Shown here: positions 14,709-46,861 of the stretch, one piece after another
Layout: each line of letters opens with the position of its first letter
Numbering within the stretch: position 1 is the stretch's first letter
Source of the DNA: Halolamina sp.
GTDB taxonomy: Archaea; Halobacteriota; Halobacteria; Halobacteriales; Haloferacaceae
Assembly (NCBI GenBank): GCA_042216705.1
Contig: JBDGTQ010000019.1
Location: 3,554-67,553 of the forward strand
Reading direction: 5' to 3'
DNA: 64,000 nt
Translations under genes and position numbers: made by a program
The notes under the pieces: generated by a model
Seen by the model: the letters and a program-made list of their open reading frames with translations, nothing else
Told to the model about the DNA's origin: nothing
The model's database searches: none

Positions 14709-14752
14709 GAGACGGATTGGACCGGCACGGACAAGAGTCGCGCGGCTGATAC

Positions 14753-21936: not shown

Positions 21937-23829
21937 ATGAAACTGAGGTCGTCCGAGCCCAGGGCGGAGGTAGACGTCCCGACCGGAGCGTGGCTTTTGG
22001 CGGGGGTTCCGTTGGCGGTGTCGTTCGTTCAGACGCTGATGGCGCTGTTCGGGTACACGTCGTCGGCGGCGGGTATCAAGCCGATCGCCGAGCCGGTGTT
22101 GTCGATCCCGATCCTGTACGAGGCCGCGGTCGTGTTCAAGACCCGGTCGGTCATCGTGATGGGACTGTTCGTGCTCATCGCCGGGGCGTGGATCGCACAG
22201 GGCCTGAGCATGCGGCTGTTCGAACACCGGGAGGCGACATACGGATTCGCCACCCTCGCCGCGTTGCTGTTCTTCTCGCTGTTTTTCGGCGTCTACTCGC
22301 CGCTGCTCGGGGCCGAAATCTCCGCGGCACAGCGTCTCGGCTTCTTCCTCGTCCCTCTCGTCGCCGCCGGAGCGATGCTGTACGCCGCGACCGCCTACGA
22401 CTGGTCGGACGTCGTCCTCGAAGAGGCCGGCGCCGACCTCGCCACGGTCAAGCGCGACCTCGCGAACGTCCGCCAGCGCTTCGAGTCGGCCTACGAGACT
22501 CGCTTCGCCGACCTCGACGCCCTCTCCGATCTGGCGCCTGAGGGCGTCACCGCCGTCCGCGAGGGACGGACGGAGTTCGAGGCGGAGCTCTCGGACATCG
22601 CCGACGACGTCGCCGCCGCACAGGCTGGCACGGGCGCCGACGAGGTGAGCCGTCGAGCGACAGAACTCCGGGAGACGGTGGCGTCGCTCGACCCTGTTGG
22701 CCGCGTCGACGCCCTCGACGCCGCGTTCCGGGAACGCCTCGAATCCGGCGTTCGGACCACGTACGGTACCGTCACGATACGGTCGCGCTACGGCGACACG
22801 TACACCCTCGTGAACCTCCCGACGGAACTTCGGGAGGCCGACCTCCCGGGGTCGTCGTCACCGGTCCACGTCGATTACCTCGCGGACGAGCTGATCGACG
22901 CGGTTCGGGGCGACGCGTCGATTTCGGCGCTGGCCGACCGCATCGAGGCCGTCGAGAGCCACCTGGACGACGTGCGTGCTCACCTCGACCGCGCGGAAAG
23001 CGAGATCGCGGACGACATCGACACCGCCGAGGAGGAGCTCGCGACCGCCGAGTCGCAGGTCGAGGCGCTCCGGGCTGGCTACGCCGAGCGGGTGGAAGAA
23101 ATCGCCGTGGACGGACGACGCGACGGGCTGACCGGCGTCGACGAGGTTCGCGACGAGCTCGACCGCGCGAAGGAGGCGTTGCACGACTGTCGGGCAGAGC
23201 AAGCGCGCGCTCTCGCCGACGACGCCCGCGCCGCGGCCGGCAAACTCGTCCCTTTCGTCGAGTTCGTGAGTACGCTGTCGGCGAGCATCGATCACGGCCA
23301 CGAGACGGTCTCCATTCCTGACGCGGTAGATACGGACGCCGTCGGGGCGCTGGCACCGGCCATCGAGGCGGCGAATCCCGCCGTCGAGGTCGCGGTCGAC
23401 GACGGCGAACTGCGGCTACGCTACGGCGAAGGGACGGCGTCGACGGAGTCCGAGTCGGACGCGAGTGACGACGCGGGCGAGGAGCGCGATGCCGTCGGAA
23501 CGTCCGAAACGACCGACCGGCGCCAGTCGGTCGCGCCCGCAAGCGACGTGGTCGACGAGGTGCTGTACGTGTTTCGGGAGTTCGAGGACGGCGCCGCCGA
23601 CGAGCCGTTCGTCCAGTACGACCTTTCGGAACTGCCCGACACCGTCGCGACCCGCGACGCGCTCGTCAACGTCCGCCGGTTCGCCGAGCGCCAGACCGAC
23701 CTCTTCGACGACGTCGAGCTCCAGGCCCCCGAACCCCCGGGGTTCGTCGAGTTCGACGTCTCTGATGGGGTGTCGGCACCGCGAGCGATAAAACAGACGC
23801 GCCGGCGGTTCAGGGAGAAGTACGCGTGA
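21937..23829 (+). CDS. polytopic membrane protein (about 5 TM) with long acidic coiled-coil cytoplasmic domain
   Basis: 630 aa, ATG. About 150 hydrophobic N-terminal aa, then heptad-like acidic helices (DLATVKRDLANVRQRFESAYE..., EAVESHLDDVRAHLDRAESEIADDIDTAEEELATAESQVEALR). TATA-like 'agtttag' about 28 nt upstream. Confidence 0.8.
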   Translation: MKLRSSEPRAEVDVPTGAWLLAGVPLAVSFVQTLMALFGYTSSAAGIKPIAEPVLSIPILYEAAVVFKTRSVIVMGLFVLIAGAWIAQGLSMRLFEHREATYGFATLAALLFFSLFFGVYSPLLGAEISAAQRLGFFLVPLVAAGAMLYAATAYDWSDVVLEEAGADLATVKRDLANVRQRFESAYETRFADLDALSDLAPEGVTAVREGRTEFEAELSDIADDVAAAQAGTGADEVSRRATELRETVASLDPVGRVDALDAAFRERLESGVRTTYGTVTIRSRYGDTYTLVNLPTELREADLPGSSSPVHVDYLADELIDAVRGDASISALADRIEAVESHLDDVRAHLDRAESEIADDIDTAEEELATAESQVEALRAGYAERVEEIAVDGRRDGLTGVDEVRDELDRAKEALHDCRAEQARALADDARAAAGKLVPFVEFVSTLSASIDHGHETVSIPDAVDTDAVGALAPAIEAANPAVEVAVDDGELRLRYGEGTASTESESDASDDAGEERDAVGTSETTDRRQSVAPASDVVDEVLYVFREFEDGAADEPFVQYDLSELPDTVATRDALVNVRRFAERQTDLFDDVELQAPEPPGFVEFDVSDGVSAPRAIKQTRRRFREKYA

Positions 23830-23890: not shown

Positions 23891-25519
23891 ATGACAGAAG
23901 AATGTGAAATCTGCTTTACCCCCGCCCCCGACTGGCAGGCGGACTCGCTGGAGGGGCACATCCGGGAGGTGCACGTGAACGACGAGGCGTCGGTCCGTGC
24001 CATCTACGGCGGGCGATTCGGCCACGTCTTCGACGCGAGCGGGGAGGCGCCGGCGGACGCGGCCGCCGACGACGGCCACGAGGACGAGGACGACGGCGTC
24101 GTCCCCGGCGGGACGACCGACATCCCCGTCGGCGACGACGCCGCGGACGACGACGAGTTGTACGGGCGCAAGTGGTACGCCATTGGCGTCGGGGGCGCCG
24201 GCAACAACATCATCGACGCGATACTGATGCGCCGGGACACGCTGTTGCGCAACGACGAGGACCGCGCACGTATCTGGCGCGGCGGTCTAGCCGGCTACGG
24301 CATCCTCAACACGAACATCGCCGAGCTCGAACAGACGTACTACGCCCGCGAGCTGAAGGAGTACTCCCGCAACGACCTCCTGAGCAACGCCATCATCGGC
24401 ATGGGCGAACACGGCTACAGCGGGATGGGCTACCGCTGGAGCAACGGGGCTGAGGTCGCGGCCACCGACTTCGAGGACGCAGGAAACCCGTTCCGAGACC
24501 GCTGGGACATCAAACAGCAGGACGTCCGCGACGCCCAGGCCATCATGCTCGCACACAGCGTCACCAAGGGAACCGGGTGCGGCTCGACGCCGGTCATCGT
24601 CGACAGGCTCCGCGACGAGGTGCTCAACGACGACGGCGTCATCGGCAAGGCGGTGCTGAGCACGGTCGTCATCCCCTCGGAGGGAGGCAAACAGTCCGAT
24701 ATCGGCGGTCGTGCCAAGAGCAACGGCGTCGTCGGACTCGCCCGGCTCTCGCAGTCGGTCGACGCGGTCATCCCGTTCAACAACGACCACCTCCGCCGTG
24801 CGAGCACGGACATCACGCCGCGAATCGACGCGTTAGAGGAGTACAACCCCCCGGAGTACGCCGATCTCAACAAGCCGCTGGTCGCGTTCTTGGAGGCGTT
24901 CACGATGTCGTCGACCCCGCAGTTCGTCGACCGGGACGCGACGATGACCGTCCGGGGCAGCGTCTTCGACGTGGCCGACAGCTTCCGTCTCGTCGAGGAC
25001 AAGTACCCCTCCGAGATGGACACCGACGAACAGCCGGCGGTGGTGTTGGCTCCGGCGCTCGGTCGGCTCCACTCCGAGGAGATATCCCGGTCGAACCTCG
25101 AACTGCTGGCGCGTAACACGCTGTTGCAGAACAGGCTGGCCGACTTCGACCCGTCGACGGCCTGGGGCGGGAACTTCATGATTTACGGGCCGGCCGAGAA
25201 GATGGAGCGCGTCTCCTCGTTCGTCAACGACGGGACGGTCCAGCGAATCCTCAACGGCGAGGAGTTCCTCGACAGCACCGAGAGCCAGTCCGTGGAGTCC
25301 ATCGACGTTCAGCTCAACCAGATCGTCATCCCGTATCTCGACGACGTGTTCATGTGGGGAACGCTGTGGAACCCGCGGATGCCGGCACTGGAAGAGATGT
25401 ACGAACACACTCGCCAGCTGAAGGAGGAAGGCGGCACCAGACAGGCCGAGAACCTCCGCGAGACCTGGGACGACGTGGAGAAGCTGTTCTCCTGTCTCGG
25501 CCGAGAGAACCTCCTGTAA
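23891..25519 (+). CDS. tubulin/FtsZ-superfamily protein 1 with N-terminal C2H2-like zinc finger
   Basis: 542 aa. CEIC-x14-H-x4-H at aa 5-28, acidic linker, then T1 YAIGVGGAGNNIIDAIL, T3-like GMGEHGYSGMGY, degenerate T4 AHSVTKGTGCGSTPVIVD, VIPFNNDHL, T7-like GSVFDVADSF, all in the canonical order. Confidence 0.8.
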   Translation: MTEECEICFTPAPDWQADSLEGHIREVHVNDEASVRAIYGGRFGHVFDASGEAPADAAADDGHEDEDDGVVPGGTTDIPVGDDAADDDELYGRKWYAIGVGGAGNNIIDAILMRRDTLLRNDEDRARIWRGGLAGYGILNTNIAELEQTYYARELKEYSRNDLLSNAIIGMGEHGYSGMGYRWSNGAEVAATDFEDAGNPFRDRWDIKQQDVRDAQAIMLAHSVTKGTGCGSTPVIVDRLRDEVLNDDGVIGKAVLSTVVIPSEGGKQSDIGGRAKSNGVVGLARLSQSVDAVIPFNNDHLRRASTDITPRIDALEEYNPPEYADLNKPLVAFLEAFTMSSTPQFVDRDATMTVRGSVFDVADSFRLVEDKYPSEMDTDEQPAVVLAPALGRLHSEEISRSNLELLARNTLLQNRLADFDPSTAWGGNFMIYGPAEKMERVSSFVNDGTVQRILNGEEFLDSTESQSVESIDVQLNQIVIPYLDDVFMWGTLWNPRMPALEEMYEHTRQLKEEGGTRQAENLRETWDDVEKLFSCLGRENLL

Positions 25520-25523: not shown

Positions 25524-26984
25524 ATGATCCCGCTACTCACCGTGTTCGGCCTGTTCGGCGGCGACGACGACGACGGCAACGACCTCGCGCGGGTGGCCGA
25601 CAGACTCGGAACGAGGCCGGACCCACGCCGGGTCGAGTCTCGGCTCGACGACCTGGCGGCCGCGGCCGACGAGCTGACGTCGGCCGCCGACGTCTCCGGT
25701 CCGGCCGGCCGCGTGTCGCCGGACGCGACGCCGGTCGAGAAGATCGAGGCGCTGGCGGCGGCCGTCGAAGCCGGGGAGCTCACCGTATCTCGGGAGTCGC
25801 CGACCGGGACTCGGACCGAAGACGGCGCCGTCGCGACCGCCGCGAGTGAGGTGCGCCGGACCGAGCGCCCGGGCGGCGTCGCGGCCGACCTGCTGGAGCG
25901 GCTCGCGGCGGCCCGGACCGTCGACGACGCGGAGCTTCTGAGCAGTCTCCGCGACGCGACCCGACGGCTGGAAACGTGTCGGACCCTCACCGACCGCGTC
26001 GACGAGACGACGACGGCGGCGGAGTACCGACGCCTCGCGGAGCGGTTGGACGCCCGCGACGACGACGTGGCGAGGACGCTCGCCGATGTCGTTGCCGACG
26101 CCGCGGAGAACTCGGATTCGGTCGCCGCCGACGAGCGCGACGAGAGGCTCATGATGGAGCTCCAGCGCGCCCTCGACGCGGTGGCACTCGACCGCCAGGT
26201 CGGCGACGGCGGCGTCGACCCCACGGTGGCGGCCACCGAGCTGGCCGACCACTTGGGGGGTCGAGCGGACGGCGAGAGGCCGACCGCGGCCGCGGCTCGG
26301 GCGGTCCGGCAGTCGGCCAACGCGGGAAGCGCGACTGCGCGACGGCTACTGGGCGACCTCGCTGACGACCGCTCGGGCGGCGACGCCGTCGAGGAGACGC
26401 TGCGAGCGGTCGTTGAGGAGCTCGACGAGGCGGCGACCGTTCGGAGCGTCGTCGGCGACGTGGACCACGACAGCGTCCGCGACCTCGCCGACGACGTCGC
26501 GGCAGCAACCGACAGGCTGGGAGACCCAGAGACCGCCGCGGCGCTCGGAGACCGGGTCGAGCAGCTCCGGCAGACGGTCGACCGCGCCGACGAGTCGAAC
26601 TCCGTCGTCGCTTACGCCGCCCGACGAGAGTTGCGCTTCTACGAGCGCGACCTCCTGCCGAGGCTCGACGGCGTCGACGGGAGTCAGGGGACGACAGACG
26701 ACGGCGCCGACGACGCCGCGGCCGCCGTCGAACGACTCGGGGACCGAACCGAACGCATCCGGGCGGAGTTCATCGAGGGCGTCGCGGACCACAACCACAG
26801 CATCCCGCTGCATTTCCTCTCACTGGTGGAGTCACTGCGTGAGGACGCCGACGACGCGCTGGCCCGAGGGGAGCCGAAACGAGCCGCCGGTTTCGCGGCT
26901 GCGGCGGGGTCGCTGCTCGACCACGTCCGTGACCTGTACGAGCGCAACGAGTACAGCGTGATGCTGCGTCGGCTCCGGGGCTAA
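25524..26984 (+). CDS. hypothetical highly acidic helical protein with short hydrophobic N-terminus
   Basis: 486 aa. Starts 4 nt after the preceding stop. MIPLLTVFGLFGG followed by Asp/Ala/Leu/Arg-rich predicted helices. No motif recognised. Confidence 0.7.
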   Translation: MIPLLTVFGLFGGDDDDGNDLARVADRLGTRPDPRRVESRLDDLAAAADELTSAADVSGPAGRVSPDATPVEKIEALAAAVEAGELTVSRESPTGTRTEDGAVATAASEVRRTERPGGVAADLLERLAAARTVDDAELLSSLRDATRRLETCRTLTDRVDETTTAAEYRRLAERLDARDDDVARTLADVVADAAENSDSVAADERDERLMMELQRALDAVALDRQVGDGGVDPTVAATELADHLGGRADGERPTAAAARAVRQSANAGSATARRLLGDLADDRSGGDAVEETLRAVVEELDEAATVRSVVGDVDHDSVRDLADDVAAATDRLGDPETAAALGDRVEQLRQTVDRADESNSVVAYAARRELRFYERDLLPRLDGVDGSQGTTDDGADDAAAAVERLGDRTERIRAEFIEGVADHNHSIPLHFLSLVESLREDADDALARGEPKRAAGFAAAAGSLLDHVRDLYERNEYSVMLRRLRG

Positions 26985-27060
26985 CGACCGCGAGACGGTG
27001 GGTGCGGCCGCCGCCGAAATGGGTGAGGTCGGCGGCCCGTTCGACTGGCAGGCCACGGTG

Positions 27061-27137
27061 TTAATTTCATAACAACTATTTCCGGAAAGTGTCGTTACAT
27101 ATATGAGGTATTCCCGACATTTGAGCCTCGTAACCAA
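27061..27137 (+). promoter_or_regulatory. AT-rich promoter island upstream of tubulin-like gene 2 (TATA-like 'acatatatg' at 27097-27105)
   Basis: Clearly A/T-rich non-coding stretch by eye (ttaatttcataacaactatttcc...ttacatatatgagg), immediately upstream of ATG 27138 and after a 153-nt gap. A possible 8-bp hairpin at 27010-27036 follows the previous gene. Confidence 0.45.
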
Positions 27138-28304
27138 ATGCCATATCTCTTCGTCGGCGCGGGCCAAGCGGGGTGTGCAATCGTCGACGCGGTGTTCGAC
27201 CACCAGCGCATCGCACAGCTCGCGACACCGGTGGCGATAAACTCGACCATCAGGGACCTCCAGAACCTCTCGAACGTTGACCGAGACGCGTGGTACGGAG
27301 TCGCGAGCGGTGAAGGGCTGGTTCCGGGGACCGTCCCTGGCTTCGAGGAACAGGTGACGGGTGGGTTCGGGCGCGATCCGCGAGCGGCGGCCGACGCCGT
27401 CGCCGACGCCGGGCCGGAGCTGCGGGACGCCTTCGCCGAGCAGTACGGCGAGGACGCCCCGCCGTTCGCGTTCGTCTTTCTCGGACTCGGCGGAGGAACC
27501 GGCTGCGGAATCGCGCCGCGGGTCGCCGAGGCGGTCAAGTCCTTCGGGGGGCCGTCGACGGACGTCATCGCAGTCGGCGTGTTGCCGAACACCGCCGGAT
27601 CGACGACCGACGGCGACGATGCGTCCGCGGTTCGCCAGGCCGAGAACACGGTGTACGGGCTCGACCGTCTGGAGGACGCCGTCGACGGCGTCGTGCTCGT
27701 CGACAACCAGCGCCTCGCCTACGAGGACGCCGCGGAAGGACGGTTCAGCGAGTACAACGAGTACGTCGCCGCGGCGATAGTCGACCTCATCTCCGGGCCG
27801 GTGCTCGAACGCATCGACCCGAGTTCCTACGAGGACCTGGACGCGCCAGTCATCGACCTGCAGGACGTGGTGACGTCGCTGACGCTGTCCGACGGCGGCC
27901 CTGGGTACGCGACGCTGGGTCGGTCGGTGACGATGACGAAGTCGATGCTGGGGTATCTGCTCCCGTTCGTCGGCAACGAGACGGTCGACGGGGCGACGCT
28001 GTCACGGCTGGCGGTGAGCAAGCGGAGCGTCGCCGACATCGCACCGGACGATGCGATCAAGGCGATCGGGCAGGTCCGGGCACCGGCGCGATACATCACC
28101 GACGACAGCTACCGCATCGAGGTGTCGATGATACGAGGCCTGCTCGACTCGTACTGCCCCGAGGTGAACATCGGCATGACGCTGACCGAGCGCAACCTGG
28201 CGTCGTTCACGACGCTGTTGACCTTCGAACGTGAAGACGTTTCCCGCATCCAGGAGCTGGAGGAAATCGCCGACCGAGCGACCCGCGCGGAGGCGTCGCC
28301 GTGA
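27138..28304 (+). CDS. tubulin/FtsZ-superfamily protein 2 (CetZ/tubulin-like)
   Basis: 388 aa. T1 LFVGAGQAGCAIVD at aa 4-17, T3-like TGGFGRDPRAAADA, T4 FLGLGGGTGCGIAP (aa 115-127), VVLVDNQRLAYE (compare tubulin DNEAL), T7-like APVIDLQDVVTSL (compare FtsZ NVDFADV). Confidence 0.85.
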   Translation: MPYLFVGAGQAGCAIVDAVFDHQRIAQLATPVAINSTIRDLQNLSNVDRDAWYGVASGEGLVPGTVPGFEEQVTGGFGRDPRAAADAVADAGPELRDAFAEQYGEDAPPFAFVFLGLGGGTGCGIAPRVAEAVKSFGGPSTDVIAVGVLPNTAGSTTDGDDASAVRQAENTVYGLDRLEDAVDGVVLVDNQRLAYEDAAEGRFSEYNEYVAAAIVDLISGPVLERIDPSSYEDLDAPVIDLQDVVTSLTLSDGGPGYATLGRSVTMTKSMLGYLLPFVGNETVDGATLSRLAVSKRSVADIAPDDAIKAIGQVRAPARYITDDSYRIEVSMIRGLLDSYCPEVNIGMTLTERNLASFTTLLTFEREDVSRIQELEEIADRATRAEASP

Positions 28305-28558
28305 CCCGACTGCGGACGCTCCTCACGGGCGCCGTCGTGGTCGTCGGAGCGCTGGCGCTGGCGACGCCGACCGCCGGCGGCGGCCCCGCCACGACGGCCG
28401 AACTCGTCCAGTCGGTCGCGACGACCCACCAGGCCGCGCTCGACGCGCGGCGTCTCGCAGGCGACCCGCTGGTGGCCGTCGCCGGCGGCGCGCTCGGACT
28501 GGGTGCGGGTTTCGTCGGCGGCGGCGTGGTCGCGTACAGCCGTCGGGGGTTGCGATGA
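28301..28558 (+). CDS. small membrane protein (85 aa; N-terminal signal/TM plus C-terminal Gly-rich TM)
   Basis: GTG start overlapping the upstream stop (GTGA), and its stop overlaps the next ATG (ATGA). LLTGAVVVVGALALA and VAVAGGALGLGAGFVGGGVVAY are hydrophobic segments. Confidence 0.6.
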   Translation: MTRLRTLLTGAVVVVGALALATPTAGGGPATTAELVQSVATTHQAALDARRLAGDPLVAVAGGALGLGAGFVGGGVVAYSRRGLR

Positions 28559-29643
28559 CGCCGGCGACGCGACTGCTCGCGGTCGTCGTCACGGTGGCGG
28601 TGCTCGCCGTCACGGGGGTCAGCCAGCCGGTTAGCGGCGCAGCACCGACCGCCAACGAGAGTTCCGTCGGCGTCTCTGCTCCCGACGCACCTTGTGCCGG
28701 CGTCTCCGAGACGCGGCTCGTCGGCTACCTGCCGACGAACGAGCGTGTCGAAAGCGACAGGTCGCTGTACGCCGGTTCGGAAATCGAACTGTTCCTCTGT
28801 CAGAGCGGCGACACCGAGCCGACCACCACGTGGTCGATAACCGGCGCCGACGGCTTCAAGATCGAAACGGAGGGGGAGTCGTCGGTCACAGTCGTCGTCA
28901 CCGCCGCCGACGGTGCGGTGTCGCTCGCCGACCACGTCGAGACCGACTACTCCCTTTCGGGTGCACCGTCGTTCACCCCCGTCTCGGCGTACCGAGCGAC
29001 ATCGGAACTCGGAGACGAGAGCCGAACGCTGACGTTCCCGTCTGCGGAGAGTCGGTCGGCGTTCGTCAGCAACGAGACGGCGTTCCAAAACGAGTTGCGG
29101 GAGCTCGAAACCGTCCGTGAGGAGATCAACTCGACGAACGCGACCGTCGACGGCTCGCTCGGAGCGCTCCCCGAGGACGAACTCGAACGCATCAACGGGA
29201 GCATCGGTCCGAGTGGGAAGCTGGCGACGACCGCCTCCGAACTCAACAGAAGCGCCTTCGCCGCGGTCGACGCCGGCGACGGCGGCGACGCGAGCGCCGT
29301 CATCGAAGCCGCCGGTCAGCGGCAGGCGACCGCCCGTTCGGAGACGGTCGCAGCGCTTCGGGCGTACCGGGAGCGGCTGAGCGACGTTCGTCGCGACGCG
29401 ACGCGCACGGTCCGACTCATGTTCGTGCTTCCGCTGCTCGGTCTGGCGCTCGTCGGCGCCGGCGGCGGATACGCCCTGGGCCGGCGGGTACTCGCCGGAG
29501 TGGAGTACGACCAACAGGTGTCGGCGCGGGAGTTCAGTCTCGCCGACGTCAAACTCCCGCTCGGAATCGGGACGGCGCTTCTGCTCGTCGGCGTCGGCGC
29601 GCTCGCCGTCCTCGGCAGGGCGTTCTTGGGGGTAATCGCATGA
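28555..29643 (+). CDS. secreted, sequon-rich protein anchored by two C-terminal TM helices
   Basis: Internal ATG (MTPATRLLAVVVTVAVLAVTG...) of track ORF 28231..29643. Signal peptide. Sequons NESS, NETA, NSTN, NATV, NGSI, NRSA. C-terminal VRLMFVLPLLGLALVGAGGGYAL and LPLGIGTALLLVGVGALAVLG. Confidence 0.8.
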   Translation: MTPATRLLAVVVTVAVLAVTGVSQPVSGAAPTANESSVGVSAPDAPCAGVSETRLVGYLPTNERVESDRSLYAGSEIELFLCQSGDTEPTTTWSITGADGFKIETEGESSVTVVVTAADGAVSLADHVETDYSLSGAPSFTPVSAYRATSELGDESRTLTFPSAESRSAFVSNETAFQNELRELETVREEINSTNATVDGSLGALPEDELERINGSIGPSGKLATTASELNRSAFAAVDAGDGGDASAVIEAAGQRQATARSETVAALRAYRERLSDVRRDATRTVRLMFVLPLLGLALVGAGGGYALGRRVLAGVEYDQQVSAREFSLADVKLPLGIGTALLLVGVGALAVLGRAFLGVIA

Positions 29644-31718
29644 AACGACAGTGGAGAGCCGCGCTCGGAATCGGTGGCATCGTTCTCGGAACGGCCGTCC
29701 TGGGAGCCGTCGTCTTCCTCTACGTGAGCTCCCGAGTTGGCGTGTTCGTCATCGGCGGGGGCGTCCCACTGGCACTCGTCGCCTCGGTGGCAGTGTACGC
29801 GCGAGGAGTGACGACAAGCACCACCGGCGAGAGCGACTTCGTTCGTCAGGCCGCCCGCGACGCCGCCGAGTCGTTCCGCGAGGCGGTGACGACGACGGAC
29901 CGCCTCATGACGGAGTATCCACGGTGGGACGACGACCGCGTTCAGACCCGCGGCGAGCAACTCGCCCACGACTTCGCCGACGCGGGCGTCGACTTCGACC
30001 TGTCGGCGGCGACGTTCACCGTCGACTCGCCCGAGCGGGTTCAGCAGTTCGACCGCCTCCGGGAGGACGTCGACGACTATCGTGACGTCCGGGACGAATC
30101 CTTCCGTGAGTTCGCACGGACGGAGGTCCAGCGGCTGAACGACCTCGCGGCCGACATCAGCGAGGAGTTCCTCGACGGCGGTGGACCGATGGTCACGGAC
30201 GCCACGGCGGTTCCAGGCACGGGCGACTACGTCGACGTCGAGGCAGTCATCTCGACGACCGAGGACGACGTGAGGGCCGTCGTGAAGTCCGCGCTCGACC
30301 GGCTCGAACGGTCGGTCGGCGAGTACGACGCGAGCGGCGACGCGAGCCACAGGAACGCGAAGAAAGCGCGCGAACGCGCCGACGAGGGTGACTTCGACGG
30401 AGCGGTGTCGGCGCTCCGAGAGAGCGCCGAGGCGGCCAGCGGTGAGGTCGGCGGCTCGTTCGAGGCCGATCGGAAGGCACTCGAACGCCTCCTGCAAACG
30501 GTCGACTCCACAGGCGTCGCCGACCGGGTGTCACGGGAGTACGTCGAGACCGTCGAAGAGGTCCGCGAGACGGTGACCGACCTCGATTCGCCGCTGCAGG
30601 CGACGGAGCTCAACGACGCGGCGGCGACGGCGCGGCAGGCCTGCATCCGGATGGCGGCGGAGCTCGAAGGCGACCTCGCGGCGCACGTCGACAGTATCCG
30701 CGCGGCGGAGATGCCGATGGGGTTCTACACGGCGCCGCCGGCAGTCGGGACGGAGTACGAGTCGACGCTCGCCGCGACCGAGACGCTCACCGCGTTCCGC
30801 CAGGAGTGGCTCGCAGCGGTCGGCGACCTCATGGAGGCCGTGGAGACGGCCGAGCGCAAGGCGGCGGTCGCGGACAGCTATGTTCCCGTCTCCGAGCGAA
30901 TCGGGGAGGAGCTTCGCCGCGACGGACGCGCCGCTGCGGCCGACCTCCCCGTCCACGACCCCGAGCCGTTCCTCGAGCTGTACGCCGAGCAACACGACGA
31001 GGCGGAGTACGACCCGTCGGGGCCGGCAGTCACCGCTCCCGGCGGCGACGAGACGTACGCGCTGACGGTGACCGCGCGGACCGAGGGCAGCATGGGTGCC
31101 AAGGAACGGCTCACCGTCGCTGTCGAGGGGTCCGGATACGACGACGAGCGGACGACGGAGACGTTCGCGGCGGTCGAGGAGACGTTCGAAGACGTCCCCT
31201 ACGGCGACGTCACGGTCACGGCGACCGCCGACCCGGCCGACTTCGGCGACGCCGAGGACTCCGTCCACGTCGACGGCGACCAGACGGTCGAGTTGCTGTT
31301 GCCGGAGCGGAGCCTCCGAGAGCAGGTCTGCGGCGCCGAACTCGACGCTGTACAGTCACAGCTCTCGACGGTCGGCGAGGTGCTCGCAGAGCGCTTCGAC
31401 GAGGAGGAGCATCTCTCGACCGACCAGGAGTTCCCCATCGTAGACGAGTACATCCCCTGTCTGCTGGTCCTCTGGGCGGAGCAGGAGGGACACACCGCCC
31501 GCCGCGACGACGGGAGGGTGCTCGTCTACGACGACGACCAGTTCGGATCTAGATTGGAAACCATCGTGAACCACAACATCACCGACGGCGATTCGATGAC
31601 GTTCGACGAGATGCGAGCGAAGTTTCTCTCGGTGCCGGCCTCGGACGAGCTACTGGCCGACATCGTGACCGATATCGACGGGTCAGTCACCGTGCGTGAC
31701 GGGGAGGTGTACGCCTGA
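29640..31718 (+). CDS. membrane protein (two N-terminal TM) with large acidic soluble domain
   Basis: 692 aa. ATGA overlap upstream, TGATG overlap downstream. AALGIGGIVLGTAVLGAVVFLYV and GVFVIGGGVPLALVASVAVYA, then about 620 acidic aa without recognisable motifs. Confidence 0.8.
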   Translation: MKRQWRAALGIGGIVLGTAVLGAVVFLYVSSRVGVFVIGGGVPLALVASVAVYARGVTTSTTGESDFVRQAARDAAESFREAVTTTDRLMTEYPRWDDDRVQTRGEQLAHDFADAGVDFDLSAATFTVDSPERVQQFDRLREDVDDYRDVRDESFREFARTEVQRLNDLAADISEEFLDGGGPMVTDATAVPGTGDYVDVEAVISTTEDDVRAVVKSALDRLERSVGEYDASGDASHRNAKKARERADEGDFDGAVSALRESAEAASGEVGGSFEADRKALERLLQTVDSTGVADRVSREYVETVEEVRETVTDLDSPLQATELNDAAATARQACIRMAAELEGDLAAHVDSIRAAEMPMGFYTAPPAVGTEYESTLAATETLTAFRQEWLAAVGDLMEAVETAERKAAVADSYVPVSERIGEELRRDGRAAAADLPVHDPEPFLELYAEQHDEAEYDPSGPAVTAPGGDETYALTVTARTEGSMGAKERLTVAVEGSGYDDERTTETFAAVEETFEDVPYGDVTVTATADPADFGDAEDSVHVDGDQTVELLLPERSLREQVCGAELDAVQSQLSTVGEVLAERFDEEEHLSTDQEFPIVDEYIPCLLVLWAEQEGHTARRDDGRVLVYDDDQFGSRLETIVNHNITDGDSMTFDEMRAKFLSVPASDELLADIVTDIDGSVTVRDGEVYA

Positions 31719-32920
31719 TGGCCCGAGCTGACACCTACACGCGCTGGGGCATCGTCGCCGCCGGCGAGGGCGGCGGCCGCATCGCCGCCGAGTTCTTCGC
31801 CCGCAGCGACAACCCGGGAATCGACGACCGCATCGTCCTGTTGAACACGAACCGCGCCGACATTCGTAACACCATCGAGCAGGCCAACATCGAGGACTCG
31901 CTGGACGAGTACACGACGGTCTTCGGGTCGAAACGCGGCGTCGGCAACTCGTTCCTCGCCGGCGAGGAGTGCGCCAGGGAGGGCCTCGACGACATCGCTA
32001 GACAGATCGACGACAGAGCGCCCGACGCCGACGCGTTCCTCCACACGACGACGCTGGGCGGCGGCACGGGCAACGGCACCATCCCGTATCTGATGCGACA
32101 GTTCGACGCCGGGTCGGAGATGGAGACGCGACGGCCCTGGATGGACAGCGCGGTCCACATCGCTCTGGCGGCGTGGCCGTACTACGACGAGCCGGCTCAC
32201 AGACAGTTCAACGCCATCTGCGGTCTCTCCCGACTCCTCCGCCGGCGCGACGGCGAACAGAACGCCGACATGGTGTTGCTGGCGGCGAACTCCCACCTCG
32301 ACGAGAGCGGTGCTGCCGACAGCTACGACGCGGTCAACAGGCGGATTCTTTCGGCCATCGACCTGCTCATCAGCGCCGGTCGAGAGGCCCACGGCGTCGT
32401 CGACGTCGAAGATTACGTCGCCAAGCCGTCGGAAATCGGGGCGTATCACTTCACCCCGGCGGTCGGCGAGGGGCTGAACGCGAAGATGCTCGAGTTCGAA
32501 CTCCTGTTCGACCGCGCCGCCGAGAACGCGTTCGTTCCGATGGACGTGGGGACTTCGCGGGCAGCCTACGCCATCGTACGCGCTCCCGAGAGGCTGATCG
32601 ACAGCGGCGAGGTGACCACGAACGACGTCAAGAGCGCGTTCAACGACTGGAAGCGCAAGCACGGGCTGGGTGCGGCGGTCGGCATGTCCACGCTGGCCCC
32701 CAAAGACGACCGCAGCAACGACGTCGACGTGTTGTTACTGCTCGGCGGCTTCGATCTGAACCCCCTGTTGGAGCACGCGCGGGGGCGGTTCGAGGAGCAC
32801 AAGGAGAACCTCGAAACGGCCAGACAGCTCGGCACCCAGGCCGAGTCCGCGGTTTCGGAGGCGTACCTCGCCGACCTCGAGGACAACCTCCAGACGTACG
32901 TCGACTTGAACGCGAGGTGA
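31718..32920 (+). CDS. tubulin/FtsZ-superfamily protein 3
   Basis: 400 aa. T1 WGIVAAGEGGGRIAAEF, T3-like FGSKRGVGNSFLAGEE, T4 FLHTTTLGGGTGNGTIPYL, MVLLAANSHL, T7-like HGVVDVEDYV, in canonical order. Confidence 0.8.
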   Translation: MARADTYTRWGIVAAGEGGGRIAAEFFARSDNPGIDDRIVLLNTNRADIRNTIEQANIEDSLDEYTTVFGSKRGVGNSFLAGEECAREGLDDIARQIDDRAPDADAFLHTTTLGGGTGNGTIPYLMRQFDAGSEMETRRPWMDSAVHIALAAWPYYDEPAHRQFNAICGLSRLLRRRDGEQNADMVLLAANSHLDESGAADSYDAVNRRILSAIDLLISAGREAHGVVDVEDYVAKPSEIGAYHFTPAVGEGLNAKMLEFELLFDRAAENAFVPMDVGTSRAAYAIVRAPERLIDSGEVTTNDVKSAFNDWKRKHGLGAAVGMSTLAPKDDRSNDVDVLLLLGGFDLNPLLEHARGRFEEHKENLETARQLGTQAESAVSEAYLADLEDNLQTYVDLNAR

Positions 32921-35742: not shown

Positions 35743-36789
35743 ATGGTCCCGACAGACGCACGCGTCGCGGTGGGTGCGGTCGTCGCCCTCGTGTTGACGA
35801 CGACGGTCGCGTCGGGCGCGGTCGCCGGAGCAGCGACGGCGACGACGGCGACGGCGACGACGGCAGTCCCGCCGCCGACGGCGGACGAACTGCTCACGCG
35901 GCTCCAGTCCTTCGAGGAGGAGCCGGCGCTGAGCGAGTACAGCGAGTTGGAGGTGATGCGGAGTCAGGCGGTTTCGACGGTACAGGTCGGCAACGCATCC
36001 CTCGCCGAGCGACGCCGTATCGCCGGCATCGTGACGGTGCTCTCGGAGTTCGTCGAGGCGTACGAGCTGGCCGCCGCCGGCGACCGCATCGAGAGCCTCG
36101 AAGCGGCGAACGAGACGCAGACGGCCATCGACTCGGTGAGGGAAGCGGGCGGCGACCAGTACGCGCGACTGGCGCAGGTGGCTCTGGAGCGGTTCTATCG
36201 CGACCAGGGAGACGAGCTCTACCAGCGCGGACAGGAGTCCACGAACACCACGGCGAAGCTCGAACTGTACGGCGCCGCACGTGAGGCGTACGAGGCCGGC
36301 GGTGCTGACCGACGGCTCGCGGAGATAACGGTGGTTTCCCAGGAGCTCCGAGCCGAGTTCGCCGTCGACAGCCGACGGTTGTCGGGGGCGCTGGCGAACG
36401 CCTCGGCGTTCGTCGCCGACTGTGGCGACGGCTGTGACGGTCCGCTCGCCGCGCTCGCCGCGCTCGGACCGAACGTCTTCGCCGCCTACACCGACGCCCG
36501 TCGCGCCCACGCCGCCGCTCGACAGGCCCAGCGCCTGTCGGACAAACACGGCCTGACCGCCCGCTCCGAGCGCGCCGCGACGCTGGTCGACGAGTCCGGG
36601 ACGGCGCTCGGCAGCTTCGCGGTCGCGAGCGTCCTCCTCGCGCTCGGCTACGGCGGTGCCGTTGCTCTCGTCGGTGCCGTCGTGAGCCACCGGCTCGCAA
36701 CGTGGGCGCTCGAAGTCGAGGGCGCACGAGTCGGACGCATCGTCCCACAGGCGACCGTCGAAGTCGAGCCGGAGGTGACCGAGTCGTGA
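35743..36789 (+). CDS. secreted helical protein with C-terminal TM anchor
   Basis: Internal ATG (MVPTDARVAVGAVVALVLTTTVASGAVAG...) 3 nt after the upstream stop. Sequons NASL, NETQ, NTTA, NASA. C-terminal FAVASVLLALGYGGAVALVGAVV. Confidence 0.75.
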   Translation: MVPTDARVAVGAVVALVLTTTVASGAVAGAATATTATATTAVPPPTADELLTRLQSFEEEPALSEYSELEVMRSQAVSTVQVGNASLAERRRIAGIVTVLSEFVEAYELAAAGDRIESLEAANETQTAIDSVREAGGDQYARLAQVALERFYRDQGDELYQRGQESTNTTAKLELYGAAREAYEAGGADRRLAEITVVSQELRAEFAVDSRRLSGALANASAFVADCGDGCDGPLAALAALGPNVFAAYTDARRAHAAARQAQRLSDKHGLTARSERAATLVDESGTALGSFAVASVLLALGYGGAVALVGAVVSHRLATWALEVEGARVGRIVPQATVEVEPEVTES

Positions 36790-43916: not shown

Positions 43917-44545
43917 GATTCGGTTGTCTGAATGACTCGTTTGAGGAACGATTCGACGCGGTCGTAGTCGGCATCGACCAACCCGTCGGGCGGGTACAAC
44001 CACAGCATCTCGGCGGTCAACCTGTCGAGGACGCCGGCGAACGTCGCGAACGCCTCGGCGATGTCGCCGAACGTCGCCGGGAGATGCTCCCCGGCGACGA
44101 GGTCGAGTCGCCGTCGGAGGCGCCGGCACTCCCCTGCGAGCTCGCGGAGCCGCTCGCTCGTCCACGGGAGCACGACGTACCAGTTCGCGGTCGTCGGGCC
44201 GTCCCGGCGGAGGGGCACGATCAACGACCCCGTCGGACGGTCACAGCGGTCGTCCTGACACGCGCGGTCAACCGCCTCTGCGACGGCGTCGGTCGGGGCG
44301 CGGTCGTCGTACCGCGCGTCGAGGATCTGCCTCACCGCGAGGTCGGCCGCGTCGGTCGGCTGTGACTCCAGTCGCGGCGGCGGGCCGATGCCGGCCGTCA
44401 GCGTTCCCAACTCCCACAGCACGTCCGTGAGGCGCTGGGCTCGCTTCCACGCCGCATCCTGGTCGCCCAGCCGGCGCCGCTCGTGAAGCACGCTCAGTTC
44501 CTCCCGGAGGACACGAACCCTGTCGGTCCACGAAGCGGCGTACAT
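43913..44545 (-). CDS. hypothetical protein (210 aa)
   Basis: ATG start. Its stop overlaps the AAA ATPase start (ATGA). Normal composition, no recognisable motif. Confidence 0.65.
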   Translation of the reverse strand: MYAASWTDRVRVLREELSVLHERRRLGDQDAAWKRAQRLTDVLWELGTLTAGIGPPPRLESQPTDAADLAVRQILDARYDDRAPTDAVAEAVDRACQDDRCDRPTGSLIVPLRRDGPTTANWYVVLPWTSERLRELAGECRRLRRRLDLVAGEHLPATFGDIAEAFATFAGVLDRLTAEMLWLYPPDGLVDADYDRVESFLKRVIQTTES

Positions 44546-44556
44546 AGTCGTCGAGC

Positions 44557-45573: not shown

Positions 45574-45575
45574 TG

Positions 45576-46700: not shown

Positions 46701-46861
46701 CAAACGACGCGTCGGAATACTAAACTTTGCCCCTCTTTCACAACCGCGCCGGGGAAAGAGCGAACTCGTCCCGAGCGAATCGACGCCTGCCCTTCCCTCG
46801 GCCGCCGACCGCCCGAGCGCCATCACCCTTTAACGACCGCGACGGCTACGAGACACTTGTA
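46701..46861. promoter_or_regulatory. divergent promoter region (minus-strand AAA operon / amidohydrolase)
   Basis: 161-nt non-coding gap with TATA-like elements on both strands: aatactaaactt at 46716-46727 and ccctttaacga about 22 nt before ATG 46862. Confidence 0.4.

What the first reader, a model, noticed from the sequence alone, without database searches (positions are those of the whole stretch)
27138..28304. Best-conserved tubulin/CetZ-like paralogue heads the long membrane-protein operon
388 aa starting directly with the T1 loop (MPYLFVGAGQAGCAIVD, tubulin/CetZ-type GQAG). T3-like GGFGRDPRAAADA, T4 GLGGGTGCGIAP, VLVDNQRLAYE (compare tubulin DNEAL) and APVIDLQDVVTSL (compare FtsZ T7 NVDFADV) follow at plausible spacings (T1 at aa 7, T4 at aa 118, T7 at aa 239). 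It shares the unusual Cys in T4 (GTGCG) with paralogue 1, suggesting a common ancestry distinct from canonical CetZ/FtsZ (GTGSG/GTGTG). It is the first gene after the only clear promoter island in the cluster.
Basis: partly seen in the sequence, partly recalled or inferred. Interest (0 to 1): 0.7.

Follow-up and report, generated by a model that had tools for sequence, protein, structure and literature searches.

The report
Tubulin-like gene in three-tubulin envelope cluster
The ORF is a real, divergent tubulin/FtsZ-family GTPase from a salt-loving archaeon, one of three ancient tubulin paralogues in a conserved gene system of about 16 genes with membrane glycoproteins and an AAA ATPase. The protein family has been noted in the literature, but its function is unknown.

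Summary
Window 27138-28304 (+) encodes a 388-aa protein with a tubulin/FtsZ GTPase domain (Pfam 48.9 bits, cutoff 33). The window matches a Halolamina MAG.

The protein ("TubB") is neither FtsZ nor canonical CetZ. With relatives from Methanoperedens, ANME, Altiarchaeales and Undinarchaeales it forms its own clade (92% bootstrap), sister to the CetZ clade. It fits the "non-canonical"/"Halo.Tub" group described in 2023, whose function is unknown.

TubB is the first gene of a tightly coupled operon: TubB, g5, g6, g7, TubC, g9, g10, g11. An upstream module (g1, TubA, g3) precedes it. A convergent operon not reported in the papers I could read follows it (beta-propeller protein, classic-clade AAA ATPase and three acidic proteins). 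The 11-gene order holds in about 27 haloarchaeal loci. The convergent operon is present in all three megaplasmids examined.

My best inference is a polymerising GTPase in a membrane-tethered filament system coupled through glycoproteins to the cell surface and remodelled by the AAA ATPase. The biological role is unknown.

The parts
21937..23829 (+). g1: 630-aa protein with 4-5 N-terminal TM helices and a long acidic coiled-coil region. First gene of the upstream module.
   Evidence: GC3 0.87. TM segments and sequence. Weak SMC-like and coiled-coil hits only. Orthologue upstream of TubA in about 27 loci.
23891..25519 (+). TubA: 542-aa tubulin-superfamily paralogue with an N-terminal CxxC...H...H zinc-finger-like motif and an acidic linker. 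Motifs GVGGAGNN, SVTKGTGCG, FDxxDS.
   Evidence: Pfam Tubulin E=1.2e-12. Alignment A2. 25% identity to TubB, E=3e-9. hhalign probability 98%. T4 motif in 28 of 28.
25524..26984 (+). g3: 486-aa soluble, very acidic helical protein. Some orthologues carry an N-terminal zinc ribbon or a bPH_2 domain.
   Evidence: The Natrinema orthologue is annotated as a PH-domain protein.
26985..27137 (.). 153-nt spacer whose last 90 nt are 42% GC, with a TATA-like ACATATATG at 27097-27105, about 36 nt upstream of the ATG. Putative internal promoter.
   Evidence: Sequence. The lowest-GC 60-nt windows of 21700-46900 lie at 27041-27101. A TATATA/TTATAT-like element sits 30-40 nt upstream of the TubB ATG in most of the 39 loci, including loci that lack g1-g3. 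The promoter function is inferred and has not been mapped.
27138..28304 (+). TubB (the finding): 388-aa tubulin/FtsZ-superfamily GTPase of the 'non-canonical'/Halo.Tub-type family. First gene of the core operon.
28301..28558 (+). g5: 85-aa protein with two TM segments. Its GTG start overlaps the TubB stop codon by 4 nt.
   Evidence: Translation. High GC3 in its frame. Genes of 83-90 aa are called at the same position in H. walsbyi, Hbt. salinarum, Natrinema and Halobaculum.
28555..29643 (+). g6: 362-aa protein with a signal/anchor sequence, an extracellular domain of about 250 aa rich in N-glycosylation sequons, and two C-terminal TM helices.
   Evidence: Six of eight Asn residues lie in N-x-S/T sequons. 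Alignment A7.
29640..31718 (+). g7: 692-aa protein with an N-terminal TM hairpin and a cytoplasmic part of about 640 aa. That part contains long helical bundles, a prealbumin/CarboxypepD_reg-like beta-sandwich and a conserved C-terminal alpha/beta domain. It overlaps g6 by 4 nt and TubC by 1 nt.
   Evidence: AF2 model with pLDDT 82. Foldseek matches only the beta-sandwich, best E 0.013. Orthologues in Methanoperedens.
31718..32920 (+). TubC: 400-aa tubulin-superfamily paralogue with motifs GEGGG, LGGGTGNG, IDVxDY. RefSeq annotates its orthologues as 'hypothetical protein'.
   Evidence: Pfam Tubulin E=3.6e-9, 37.6 bits. Best PDB match is CetZ1 4b46, E=3.4e-13. Alignment A3. hhalign against TubB gives probability 98%. 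Annotation.
32927..35740 (+). g9: 937-aa bitopic protein. It has a signal peptide, a sequon-rich extracellular region of about 390 aa, a TM segment (aa 429-454) followed by RRRSRR, and a cytoplasmic part of about 480 aa with transthyretin/Cna-B-like beta-sandwiches and a conserved helical end.
   Evidence: Collagen-adhesin-like match at E=2e-6. Sequons: 8 of 18 Asn outside against 1 of 9 inside. The Halobaculum orthologue is named 'carboxypeptidase regulatory-like'.
35743..36789 (+). g10: 348-aa protein with a signal/anchor sequence, a Thr-rich linker, an extracellular helical domain with sequons, a C-terminal TM segment and a short tail.
   Evidence: The g10 HMM detects homologues next to TubB in Methanoperedens and ANME-2.
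36786..39500 (+). g11: about 904 aa. The probable GTG start at 36786 overlaps the g10 stop (the ORF itself opens at 36702). It has a signal peptide, Ig-like/choice-of-anchor-D beta-sandwich domains, a helical region and a C-terminal TM segment.
   Evidence: Orthologues overlap g10 by 4-8 nt.
39517..42315 (-). r1: 932-aa protein with no signal peptide. It is the last gene of the convergent operon. Orthologues have a PQQ_2-type beta-propeller and CARDB domains.
42312..43916 (-). r2: classic-clade AAA ATPase of about 534 aa counted from the ATG at 43916. It has a single AAA domain preceded by an N-terminal region of about 210 aa with a Gly/Ser/Asn linker.
   Evidence: Pfam AAA E=8.6e-31. Best PDB matches are CDC48/p97 D2 at 1e-48 and Vps4. 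NCBIfam CDC48 109 bits and CdvC 106 bits, both below cutoff. 54-65% identical orthologues sit next to the cluster on three plasmids.
43913..44545 (-). r2b: 210-aa protein. Its stop codon overlaps the r2 start (ATGA).
44557..45573 (-). r3: 338-aa very acidic helical protein with no family match.
45576..46700 (-). r4: about 374 aa counted from the internal Met (the ORF opens at 46826). First gene of the convergent operon, with no family match.
   Evidence: Orthologue lengths of 371-375 aa.

Best explanation
TubB is a cytoplasmic GTPase of the tubulin/FtsZ superfamily. It belongs to a small archaeal family that is sister to CetZ, matching the 'non-canonical TSF'/'Halo.Tub' group in the literature.

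Shown:
- It has the complete two-domain tubulin fold.
- It keeps every nucleotide-binding loop and an acidic T7 residue (D243) at the position of the T7 acidic residue of CetZ1.

Inferred:
- It binds GTP and polymerises head to tail. Hydrolysis would be triggered when the T7 loop of one subunit inserts into the GTP pocket of the next.
- It works as one of three obligatorily co-encoded paralogues (TubA, TubB, TubC). These build a homo- or heteropolymeric filament on the inner face of the membrane.
- The filament is tethered by the cluster's membrane-anchored cytoplasmic proteins: g1, g7 and the cytoplasmic half of g9.
- Through g9, and through the extracellular glycoproteins g5, g6, g10 and g11, it is coupled to a structure on the cell surface.
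- The convergent operon supplies a classic-clade AAA ATPase (r2) with cofactors (r1, r2b, r3, r4). These remodel or disassemble the filament or its adaptors, as Vps4 does for ESCRT-III and katanin/spastin do for microtubules.

The biological output (envelope or shape patterning, surface-structure assembly, or membrane remodelling) is not determined.
For: Fold and motifs:
- Pfam Tubulin scores above its gathering cutoff.
- The AF2 model has pTM 0.74. Foldseek aligns 380-400 columns to CetZ (3zid, E=9e-18; 4b46, TM-score normalised to target length (TMt) 0.75) and to FtsZ.
- T1, T3, T4 and T7 are invariant across genera, and T7 aligns with CetZ1.

A separate family:
- Only 34 clusters at 50% identity reach E<=1e-30 among 1.84 billion representatives. 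Scores drop sharply to about 57 bits for other superfamily members.
- In the NJ tree the TubB clade has 92% support, the CetZ clade 96%, and the two are sisters at 84%.

A complex:
- The gene order g1-TubA-g3-TubB-g5-g6-g7-TubC-g9-g10-g11 holds in about 27 loci from more than 15 genera.
- Start and stop codons overlap by 1-4 nt, or genes are 2-6 nt apart, from TubB to g11.
- A core of TubB, g6-like, g7, TubC, g9 and g10 is kept in Ca. Methanoperedens. ANME-2 keeps g10/g11-like genes next to a TubB-like gene.

Topology:
- TM and signal predictions.
- N-glycosylation sequons are strongly enriched only in the predicted extracellular segments.

Link to the AAA ATPase:
- The five-gene convergent operon lies next to g11 in the window and on megaplasmids of Halobacterium, Halobaculum and Natrinema.
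- Independently, the ANME-1 TubB-like gene lies in one gene string with a Vps4_C-containing AAA ATPase.
Against: - No biochemical or genetic data exist for any member.
- The C-terminal domain of the TubB model has only moderate confidence (pLDDT 45-75).
- Co-polymerisation of the three paralogues and every protein-protein contact are inferred from gene linkage alone.
- The r2 AAA domain is equally similar to CDC48 D2, CdvC/Vps4 and proteasomal ATPases, so a general unfoldase or quality-control role cannot be excluded.
- The r-operon link was verified only in the window, three plasmids and one ANME-1 contig.
- g7, g9 and the other partners have no structural or sequence analogue that points to a function.
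- The cluster is patchy and often plasmid-borne, so it is accessory, not core cell biology.
Confidence: 0.55

Rival explanations
1. [quoted passage not shown] On this reading the neighbouring genes are not functionally linked to it.
For: CetZ structures are the best matches by sequence profile (3zid, 3.7e-12) and by fold. The TubB clade is sister to the CetZ clade. Some ANME-2 relatives are auto-annotated 'Tubulin-like protein CetZ'.
Against: The best profile score against any CetZ is only 49 bits, against 400-840 bits within the family. The labelled CetZ (Halogeometricum P0192) scores 47.5 bits, E=1e-7. TubB falls outside the 96%-supported clade that holds haloarchaeal CetZ and the Thermococci sequences. 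The strict 11-gene synteny with overlapping genes is unlike the published CetZ neighbourhoods (PMC9856176).
Confidence: 0.06
2. The cluster is a TubZ-like (type III) DNA-segregation system for megaplasmids. The tubulins would form treadmilling filaments that push or pull replicons.
For: All five PLSDB hits lie on haloarchaeal megaplasmids. RepX/TubZ is the second-best PDB profile hit at 1.4e-9, and TubZ has Foldseek TM-scores of about 0.6.
Against: The cluster also sits on chromosomes, for example H. walsbyi (3.1 Mb), Halovenus salina and Halosimplex. There is no small TubR-like DNA-binding gene or centromere-like repeat array next to TubB. Most partners are membrane or extracellular glycoproteins, which a partition system does not need. 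Three paralogues plus about 13 further genes far exceed any known par locus.
Confidence: 0.05
3. The system is a membrane-remodelling machine for vesicle, tube or bridge formation, or for an accessory scission process, not an envelope-patterning cytoskeleton. The tubulins would constrict or shape the membrane, and the Vps4/CDC48-like ATPase would recycle them.
For: A classic-clade AAA ATPase is genomically linked in haloarchaea and in ANME-1, where it has a Vps4_C domain. Many partners are membrane-anchored coiled-coil proteins. There is a precedent in the FtsZl1 prediction (PMC2875224).
Against: There are no ESCRT-III/Snf7, vWA or dynamin-like partners. The large glycosylated Ig-like ectodomains (g9, g11) fit a surface structure better than a scission machine. 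Nothing distinguishes this reading experimentally from the best explanation, and the two overlap substantially.
Confidence: 0.2
4. TubB is a non-polymerising, regulatory or pseudo-enzymatic GTPase scaffold within a secretion or assembly apparatus for the surface proteins g6, g9, g10 and g11.
For: T4 carries an unusual invariant Cys (GGGTGCG), and TubA has a Lys in place of the second Gly (KGTGCG). The partners have Sec-type signals. An AAA unfoldase could act in export.
Against: The acidic T7 residues that serve only in polymer-dependent GTPase activation are invariant in all three paralogues. The full C-terminal activation domain is retained.
Confidence: 0.1

Closest known systems
'Halo.Tub' / non-canonical haloarchaeal tubulin-superfamily proteins (Santana-Molina et al. 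2023, PMC9871819; 'non-canonical TSF' of Brown & Duggin 2023, PMC9856176)
   Same: It occurs in Halobacterota. Its position in the tree is CetZ-like but outside canonical CetZ. Several tubulin-like copies lie in quasi-tandem with coiled-coil neighbours of unknown function. One source names the H. walsbyi orthologue 'FtsZ family protein, noncanonical'.
   Different: I could not compare directly with the authors' sequence set. Those papers, as far as I could read them, do not describe the fixed 11-gene order, the membrane-glycoprotein topology, the three separate paralogue families, the Methanoperedens/ANME versions or the convergent AAA-ATPase operon.
CetZ (CetZ1 and CetZ2 of Haloferax volcanii, PDB 4b46 and 4b45; M. 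thermophila CetZ, 3zid)
   Same: It is the closest solved fold and sequence relative. Both start directly at T1 with no N-terminal extension. Both have a GQAG-type T1 loop, and the acidic T7 residue aligns with that of CetZ1.
   Different: Identity is only 20-24%. TubB forms a separate clade. T4 has Cys instead of Ser. The gene context is entirely different. The role is unknown, whereas CetZ1 controls rod shape and motility.
FtsZ
   Same: It shares the superfamily fold and the T7 pattern D-x-x-D. HMMER aligns T3, T4 and the N-Q-R-L segment.
   Different: TIGR00065 scores 49 bits against a cutoff of 295. There is no FtsZ_C domain. It is not in a division-gene context. The host family is accessory and often plasmid-borne.
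TubZ/RepX-TubR plasmid partition systems
   Same: Both are divergent tubulin-like GTPases that are often plasmid-encoded, and the profile and fold similarity is comparable.
   Different: There is no TubR or centromere. Three paralogues are co-encoded. The partners are membrane and surface proteins. Chromosomal copies exist.
Cytoskeleton plus dedicated AAA remodeller pairs (Vps4/CdvC with ESCRT-III; katanin/spastin with microtubules). This is a functional analogy only.
   Same: A classic-clade AAA ATPase is genetically linked to a filament-forming protein. The ANME-1 version carries a Vps4_C domain.
   Different: No MIT domain or ESCRT-III was detected. The window's r2 is as close to CDC48 D2 and proteasomal ATPases as it is to CdvC. 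The interaction has not been tested.
FtsZl1 (Tubulin_2, PF13809) vWA operons (Makarova & Koonin 2010, PMC2875224)
   Same: Both are divergent tubulin-like proteins in an operon with many membrane proteins, and membrane remodelling was proposed for FtsZl1.
   Different: Tubulin_2 scores 15.6 bits against a cutoff of 27. There are no vWA, protein-kinase, P-loop-GTPase or OmpA partners.

Membership tests
Tubulin/FtsZ superfamily | GTPase domain with the G-box (T4, GGGTG[ST]G-like) and T1-T6 loops, recognised by Pfam PF00091 | tested here: met
   PF00091 scores 48.9 bits against a cutoff of 33, covering aa 5-193. GLGGGTGCG is invariant.
Tubulin/FtsZ superfamily | Two-domain fold: an N-terminal nucleotide-binding domain and a C-terminal activation domain joined by helix H7 | tested here: met
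   The AF2 model has pTM 0.74. Foldseek aligns 380-400 columns to CetZ, FtsZ and TubZ with target-normalised TM-score (TMt) 0.6-0.75. The C-terminal domain has only moderate confidence.
Tubulin/FtsZ superfamily | Acidic catalytic residue in the T7 loop | tested here: met
   D240 and D243 are invariant. They align with CetZ1 D-S-S-E.
Tubulin/FtsZ superfamily | GTP-dependent polymerisation and polymer-stimulated GTPase activity | not testable with these tools
   Needs biochemistry.
FtsZ (cell-division protein) | Equivalog-level match to TIGR00065 and an FtsZ_C domain | tested here: not met
   TIGR00065 scores 49.3 bits against a cutoff of 295.2. There is no FtsZ_C hit.
CetZ | Placement inside the CetZ clade, whose boundary is set by the Thermococcales CetZs (PMC9856176) | tested here: not met
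   In the NJ tree TubB and the TubB-like sequences form their own clade (92%). They lie outside the 96% clade that holds Halogeometricum CetZ and a Thermococci sequence. Caveat: this is a distance method with few labelled references.
CetZ | CetZ-type gene neighbourhood (type IV pilus, sugar epimerase or cofactor genes; PMC9856176) | tested here: not met
   The neighbours are g1-g11 and r1-r4.
Halo.Tub / non-canonical haloarchaeal TSF | A Halobacterota protein that is CetZ-like but outside canonical CetZ, with several copies in quasi-tandem and coiled-coil neighbours (PMC9871819) | tested here: met
   There are three Tubulin-domain genes within 9 kb. The neighbours are coiled-coil proteins. For distribution, and for tree position. 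One source labels the H. walsbyi orthologue 'noncanonical'. Identity with the authors' own sequences was not checked.
TubZ/RepX partition system | An adjacent TubR-type DNA-binding adaptor and centromeric repeats | tested here: not met
   No small DNA-binding gene lies next to TubB. The neighbours are membrane proteins. I did not run a dedicated repeat search of the spacer.
FtsZl1 (Tubulin_2) | PF13809 match above its cutoff and vWA-domain partners | tested here: not met
   PF13809 scores 15.6 bits against a cutoff of 27. There is no vWA domain in the cluster.
Eukaryote-like tubulins (tubulin, BtubA/B, Odin/Asgard tubulin, artubulin) | Closer similarity to tubulins than to FtsZ/CetZ, and a Tubulin_C domain | tested here: not met
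   Tubulin, Btub and Asgard tubulin profile hits are E=5e-5 to 1e-3, weaker than CetZ and FtsZ. There is no Tubulin_C hit.

The most novel reading that the evidence does not exclude
The window holds a self-contained, horizontally mobile machine of about 16 genes and 25 kb. In it, filaments built from three anciently diverged tubulin paralogues are anchored to the membrane. They are mechanically coupled through bitopic glycoproteins to a glycosylated surface assembly. A dedicated Vps4/CDC48-like AAA ATPase turns them over. This would be a previously undescribed class of prokaryotic trans-envelope cytoskeletal machine, found in Halobacteria and in reduced form in Methanoperedens and ANME archaea.
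Probability: 0.35. Interest if true: 0.85.

Novelty: new member of a known kind. Interest (0 to 1): 0.6.

Why it matters
Archaeal tubulin-superfamily biology is known experimentally only for FtsZ1, FtsZ2 and CetZ. The 'non-canonical' haloarchaeal tubulins have stayed a footnote.

This analysis shows they are not stray paralogues. They form a fixed triad inside a large conserved system with predicted trans-membrane links to the cell surface and a linked AAA ATPase. Three co-evolving tubulin-like subunits with a dedicated remodeller recall the logic of eukaryotic microtubule systems, and the system bears on how tubulin families diversified in archaea.

The system is present on plasmid pHS2 of Halobacterium salinarum R1 (OE_RS12000 to OE_RS12075). 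To my knowledge this organism is genetically tractable, so the hypotheses can be tested directly.

Tried and rejected
- FtsZl1/vWA system: rejected. Tubulin_2 is below its cutoff and there are no vWA, kinase or OmpA partners.
- Borg/Methanoperedens 'tubulin': this is a different protein of about 1057 aa with a coiled-coil insertion.
- Defence or phage origin: PADLOC and PHROGs gave nothing except generic AAA similarity (IetA/TRIP13) for r2. There was no tblastn hit in the phage collection.
- RNA elements: no Rfam family and no tRNA in the window.
- g7 homologue searches with a single sequence and with the 18-sequence profile returned the same six proteins, a limit of the word index.
- Foldseek with the g7 model matched only its beta-sandwich, best E 0.013.
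- Profile searches of g7 and g9 against the PDB gave only coiled-coil noise and Cna-B/transthyretin-like sandwiches.
- The N-terminal 215 aa of r2 against the PDB hit only Gly/Ser linkers of engineered proteins, which is an artefact.
- I tried to obtain labelled FtsZ references from the representative hits, but none reached the FtsZ cutoff and NCBIfam returned no CetZ-specific model for them. tblastn of TubC against plasmids found only the cluster itself.
- Duggin et al. 2015 (PMC4369195) is not held.
- The neighbours of the Undinarchaeales and Altiarchaeales TubB-like genes show no detectable homology to g7, g9 or g10, so the system cannot be extended to them.
Full report
OBSERVATION

The ORF at 27138-28304 (+) exists exactly as described: ATG to TGA, 388 aa. 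In this window of about 70% GC its frame has the coding signature, with GC at codon positions 1/2/3 of 0.69/0.47/0.87. The overlapping ORFs on other frames do not.

Pfam recognises a Tubulin/FtsZ GTPase domain over aa 5-193 at E=1.2e-12 and 48.9 bits, against a gathering cutoff of 33.

- GAGQAG, aa 7-12
- GGFGRDP, aa 75-81
- GLGGGTGCG, aa 116-124
- VDNQR, aa 188-192
- IDLQD, aa 239-243

In an alignment of 16 orthologues from 13 genera these residues are invariant or nearly so, at 57% mean column identity.

An AlphaFold2 model (pLDDT 70, pTM 0.74; N-domain 80-90, C-domain 45-75) was compared with the PDB by Foldseek. It aligns over 380-400 columns with CetZ (3zid, E=9e-18; 4b46 and 4b45, TM-score normalised to target length (TMt) 0.75), then with FtsZ and TubZ. 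The protein is therefore a complete two-domain member of the tubulin superfamily.

ORIGIN AND FAMILY

The protein is 100% identical to one from a Halolamina sp. MAG. Orthologues at 45-77% identity occur in Halobaculum, Halorussus, Halopenitus, Halosimplex, Haloparvum, Halorubrum, Halobacterium, Haloquadratum, Halorubellus, Haloarchaeobius, Natronobacterium, Halobiforma, Natrinema, Natronomonas, Halovenus and others. Ca. Methanoperedens has orthologues at 40-41%.

A profile search of 1.84 billion representative proteins found only 34 clusters at E<=1e-30 and 49 at E<=1e-10. Scores then fall abruptly to the superfamily background of about 57 bits or less. The more distant full-length members come from Altiarchaeales, ANME-2/Methanosarcinales, ANME-1 and Undinarchaeales.

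It is not FtsZ: TIGR00065 scores 49 bits against a cutoff of 295, and there is no FtsZ_C domain. Against the PDB the family profile scores best on CetZ from M. thermophila (3.7e-12). RepX (1.4e-9), CetZ1 (8e-8) and M. jannaschii FtsZ (1e-7) follow, and tubulins are weaker.

I built a neighbour-joining tree from 43 sequences and 340 columns, with 200 bootstraps and E. coli FtsZ as outgroup:
- TubB and the TubB-like sequences form one clade (92%).
- A separate clade holds a UniProt-labelled Halogeometricum CetZ and a Thermococci sequence (96%).
- The two clades are sisters (84%).

This matches the published description of a 'Halo.Tub'/CetZ-like group in Halobacterota. That group has an unstable position between CetZ and tubulins, several copies in quasi-tandem and coiled-coil neighbours (PMC9871819). 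It also matches the 'non-canonical TSF' class of Brown and Duggin (PMC9856176). One source names the H. walsbyi orthologue 'FtsZ family protein, noncanonical'. The family has therefore been noticed before. I found no functional study of it.

THE THREE PARALOGUES

Two more Tubulin-domain genes lie in the cluster: TubA (23891-25519, 542 aa) and TubC (31718-32920, 400 aa).

- TubA and TubB are detectably related by BLASTP (25% identity, E=3e-9).
- TubC is linked to both only by profile comparison (hhalign probability 98%).
- Each is its own orthologue family, conserved at 56-59% across genera.
- Each keeps a T7 D-x-x-D motif.
TubB has GGGTGCG in 116 of 120 and TubA has SVTKGTGCG in 28 of 28. TubC has GGGTGNG, and the distant TubB-like proteins and CetZ have Ser or Gly.
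- The tree groups TubA with TubC (84%). This may be long-branch attraction, so whether TubA is closer to TubB remains open.
- TubC is the paralogue closest to CetZ1 (3.4e-13). TubA is the most divergent, with a best PDB hit of 1e-4.

THE CLUSTER

A GC3-based gene map and the translations give, all on the + strand:
- g1: 4-5 TM helices and a coiled coil
- TubA
- g3: acidic and helical
- a 153-nt spacer
- TubB
- g5: 85 aa, 2 TM
- g6
- g7
- TubC
- g9
- g10
- g11

From TubB to g11 the genes overlap by 1-4 nt or are 2-6 nt apart.

tblastn with the window proteins against 39 loci fetched from one-genome-per-species contigs shows the same order in about 27 loci. The same order is seen in H. walsbyi C23.

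Some loci lack g1-TubA-g3 and start with TubB: Halolamina salina, Halobellus and Methanoperedens. In Methanoperedens and ANME-2 the g10- and g11-like genes lie divergently upstream of TubB.

This modularity fits an internal promoter. The spacer contains the lowest-GC stretch of the whole system (27041-27101). It also has a TATA-like ACATATATG about 36 nt before the ATG. A similar TATATA/TTATAT element sits 30-40 nt upstream of TubB in most loci. Two other spacers, upstream of g1 and between g1 and TubA, could also carry promoters.

TOPOLOGY OF THE PARTNERS

Hydropathy and charge, together with the distribution of N-x-S/T sequons, give a consistent picture.

Outside the cell: g6, the N-terminal half of g9, g10 and g11 have signal or anchor sequences, and 44-80% of their Asn residues lie in sequons.

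In the cytoplasm: the tubulins, g1, g3, g7 and the C-terminal half of g9 have 0-20% of Asn in sequons.
- g7 is held by an N-terminal TM hairpin.
- g9 crosses the membrane once in the window copy. Its TM segment is followed by RRRSRR. Its cytoplasmic half of 480 aa contains transthyretin/Cna-B-like sandwiches.

The AF2 model of g7 (pLDDT 82) shows long helical bundles, a beta-sandwich and a C-terminal alpha/beta domain. Only the sandwich has structural neighbours.

A SECOND, CONVERGENT OPERON

Directly downstream, on the minus strand, lie five genes:
- r4
- r3
- r2b
- r2: a single-domain classic-clade AAA ATPase. Its best matches are CDC48/p97 D2, with CdvC/Vps4 close behind.
- r1: no signal peptide. 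Orthologues have a PQQ_2 beta-propeller and CARDB domains.

The same five genes, in the same convergent position next to g11, occur on three plasmids:
- Halobacterium salinarum R1 plasmid pHS2
- a Halobaculum roseum plasmid
- a Natrinema plasmid

In Methanoperedens, PQQ_2 propeller genes flank the cluster. In an ANME-1 contig the TubB-like gene lies two genes downstream of, and on the same strand as, an AAA ATPase with a Vps4_C domain.

The system therefore spans about 21937-46700. It is bounded by a histidine kinase gene on one side and a 5'-deoxyadenosine deaminase gene on the other.

MECHANISM (INFERENCE)

What is shown:
- the fold
- conserved GTP-binding and T7 residues in all three paralogues
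- obligate co-occurrence
- translational coupling
- the predicted topology
- the genomic link to the AAA ATPase

What is inferred:
- GTP-dependent filaments form from TubA, TubB and TubC at the membrane.
- g1, g7 and g9 tether them.
- The filaments are coupled to an extracellular glycoprotein assembly (g5, g6, g9, g10, g11).
- r2 and its cofactors turn them over.

The cellular purpose cannot be read from the sequences. It could be envelope or shape patterning, assembly of a surface structure, or membrane remodelling. The patchy distribution, the frequent plasmid location and the mismatch between TubB similarity and taxonomy indicate an accessory, horizontally transferred module.

RIVALS

- Canonical CetZ: disfavoured by scores, tree and gene context.
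- TubZ-type plasmid partition: disfavoured by chromosomal copies, the absence of TubR or a centromere, and the membrane and surface partners.
- FtsZl1/vWA system: rejected.
- Defence or phage function: no support.
- Membrane-remodelling reading: overlaps with the best explanation and stays open.

VERDICT

The protein is a new member of a family already noted in the literature but never characterised. I did not find the following described in the papers I could read: the fixed architecture, the topology, the Methanoperedens and ANME versions, and the linked AAA-ATPase operon. With Halobacterium salinarum R1 as a host, the system is experimentally approachable.

Noticed in passing
window 39517-46700 (- strand): A five-gene operon convergent with the tubulin cluster: r4, r3, r2b, a classic-clade AAA ATPase, and a beta-propeller/CARDB protein. 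It is conserved next to g11 on plasmids of Halobacterium, Halobaculum and Natrinema. It is probably part of the same system.
   Followed up: yes
L050 477-7022 (ANME-1 / Methanophagales metagenome contig): A TubB-like gene sits in one gene string with an AAA ATPase that carries AAA_lid_3 and Vps4_C domains and an N-terminal TPR. This is an independent link between this tubulin family and a Vps4-like ATPase.
   Followed up: partly
window 31718-32920; L042 14679-15902; L044 24792-26018; L045 24574-25773: RefSeq annotates TubC orthologues as 'hypothetical protein', although they pass the Pfam Tubulin cutoff (37.6 bits against 33). The third tubulin is therefore invisible in standard annotation.
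   Followed up: yes
window 23891-24180 (TubA N-terminus): TubA carries an N-terminal C-x2-C...H-x3/4-H zinc-finger-like motif followed by a variable acidic linker of 40-150 aa. The motif is present in 12 of 15 aligned orthologues and missing in Haloarcula rubra and H. walsbyi as called.
   Followed up: partly
window 28555-29643, 32927-34210, 35743-36600, 36786-39400: N-x-S/T sequons are strongly enriched in the predicted ectodomains (up to 17 of 21 Asn in the Halorussus g9 orthologue). This suggests heavily N-glycosylated surface proteins. g10 also has a Thr-rich linker typical of O-glycosylated haloarchaeal surface proteins.
   Followed up: partly
L041 2010-3248 (Ca. Methanoperedens nitroreducens): A further ORF scores weakly on all three tubulin profiles (E 3e-5 to 5e-4). 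It lies 7 kb upstream of TubB and may be a divergent third paralogue in a lineage that lacks a recognisable TubA.
   Followed up: no
P0132/P0270, L046 10001-12154 (Altiarchaeales): A TubB-like domain (E=1.5e-98 to the profile, T4 GGGTGSG) is fused to a Lys/Glu-rich repetitive C-terminal extension of about 330 aa. No cluster partners were detectable on the short flank.
   Followed up: partly
alignment A1 columns 116-207 (Haloarchaeobius and Halorubellus TubB): Some TubB orthologues carry an acidic, Trp/Asp/Glu-rich insertion of 40-90 aa after the first 100 residues, between the T3 region and strand S4. tblastn splits these genes into two pieces.
   Followed up: no
NZ_CP126159.1 (Halobaculum halobium plasmid), hits H3 and H6: The best TubB match (record 427057-428190) and the best TubC match (record 14067-15263) lie about 50 kb apart on a 464-kb circular plasmid, and each query has two matching places. 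This suggests a duplicated or rearranged cluster.
   Followed up: no
L044 1555-2070 and 40234-40926 (Natrinema sp. SYSU A 869 plasmid): The whole system is bracketed by a site-specific integrase fragment, ArdC-like and TFB genes on one side and a recombinase gene on the other. This fits carriage on a mobile island.
   Followed up: no
window 19586-19993 and 20786-21847: Immediately upstream of the system lie a small TM2/zinc-ribbon (DUF7575) protein gene and a divergently transcribed membrane histidine kinase gene. The kinase is not conserved next to the cluster in other genomes.
   Followed up: partly
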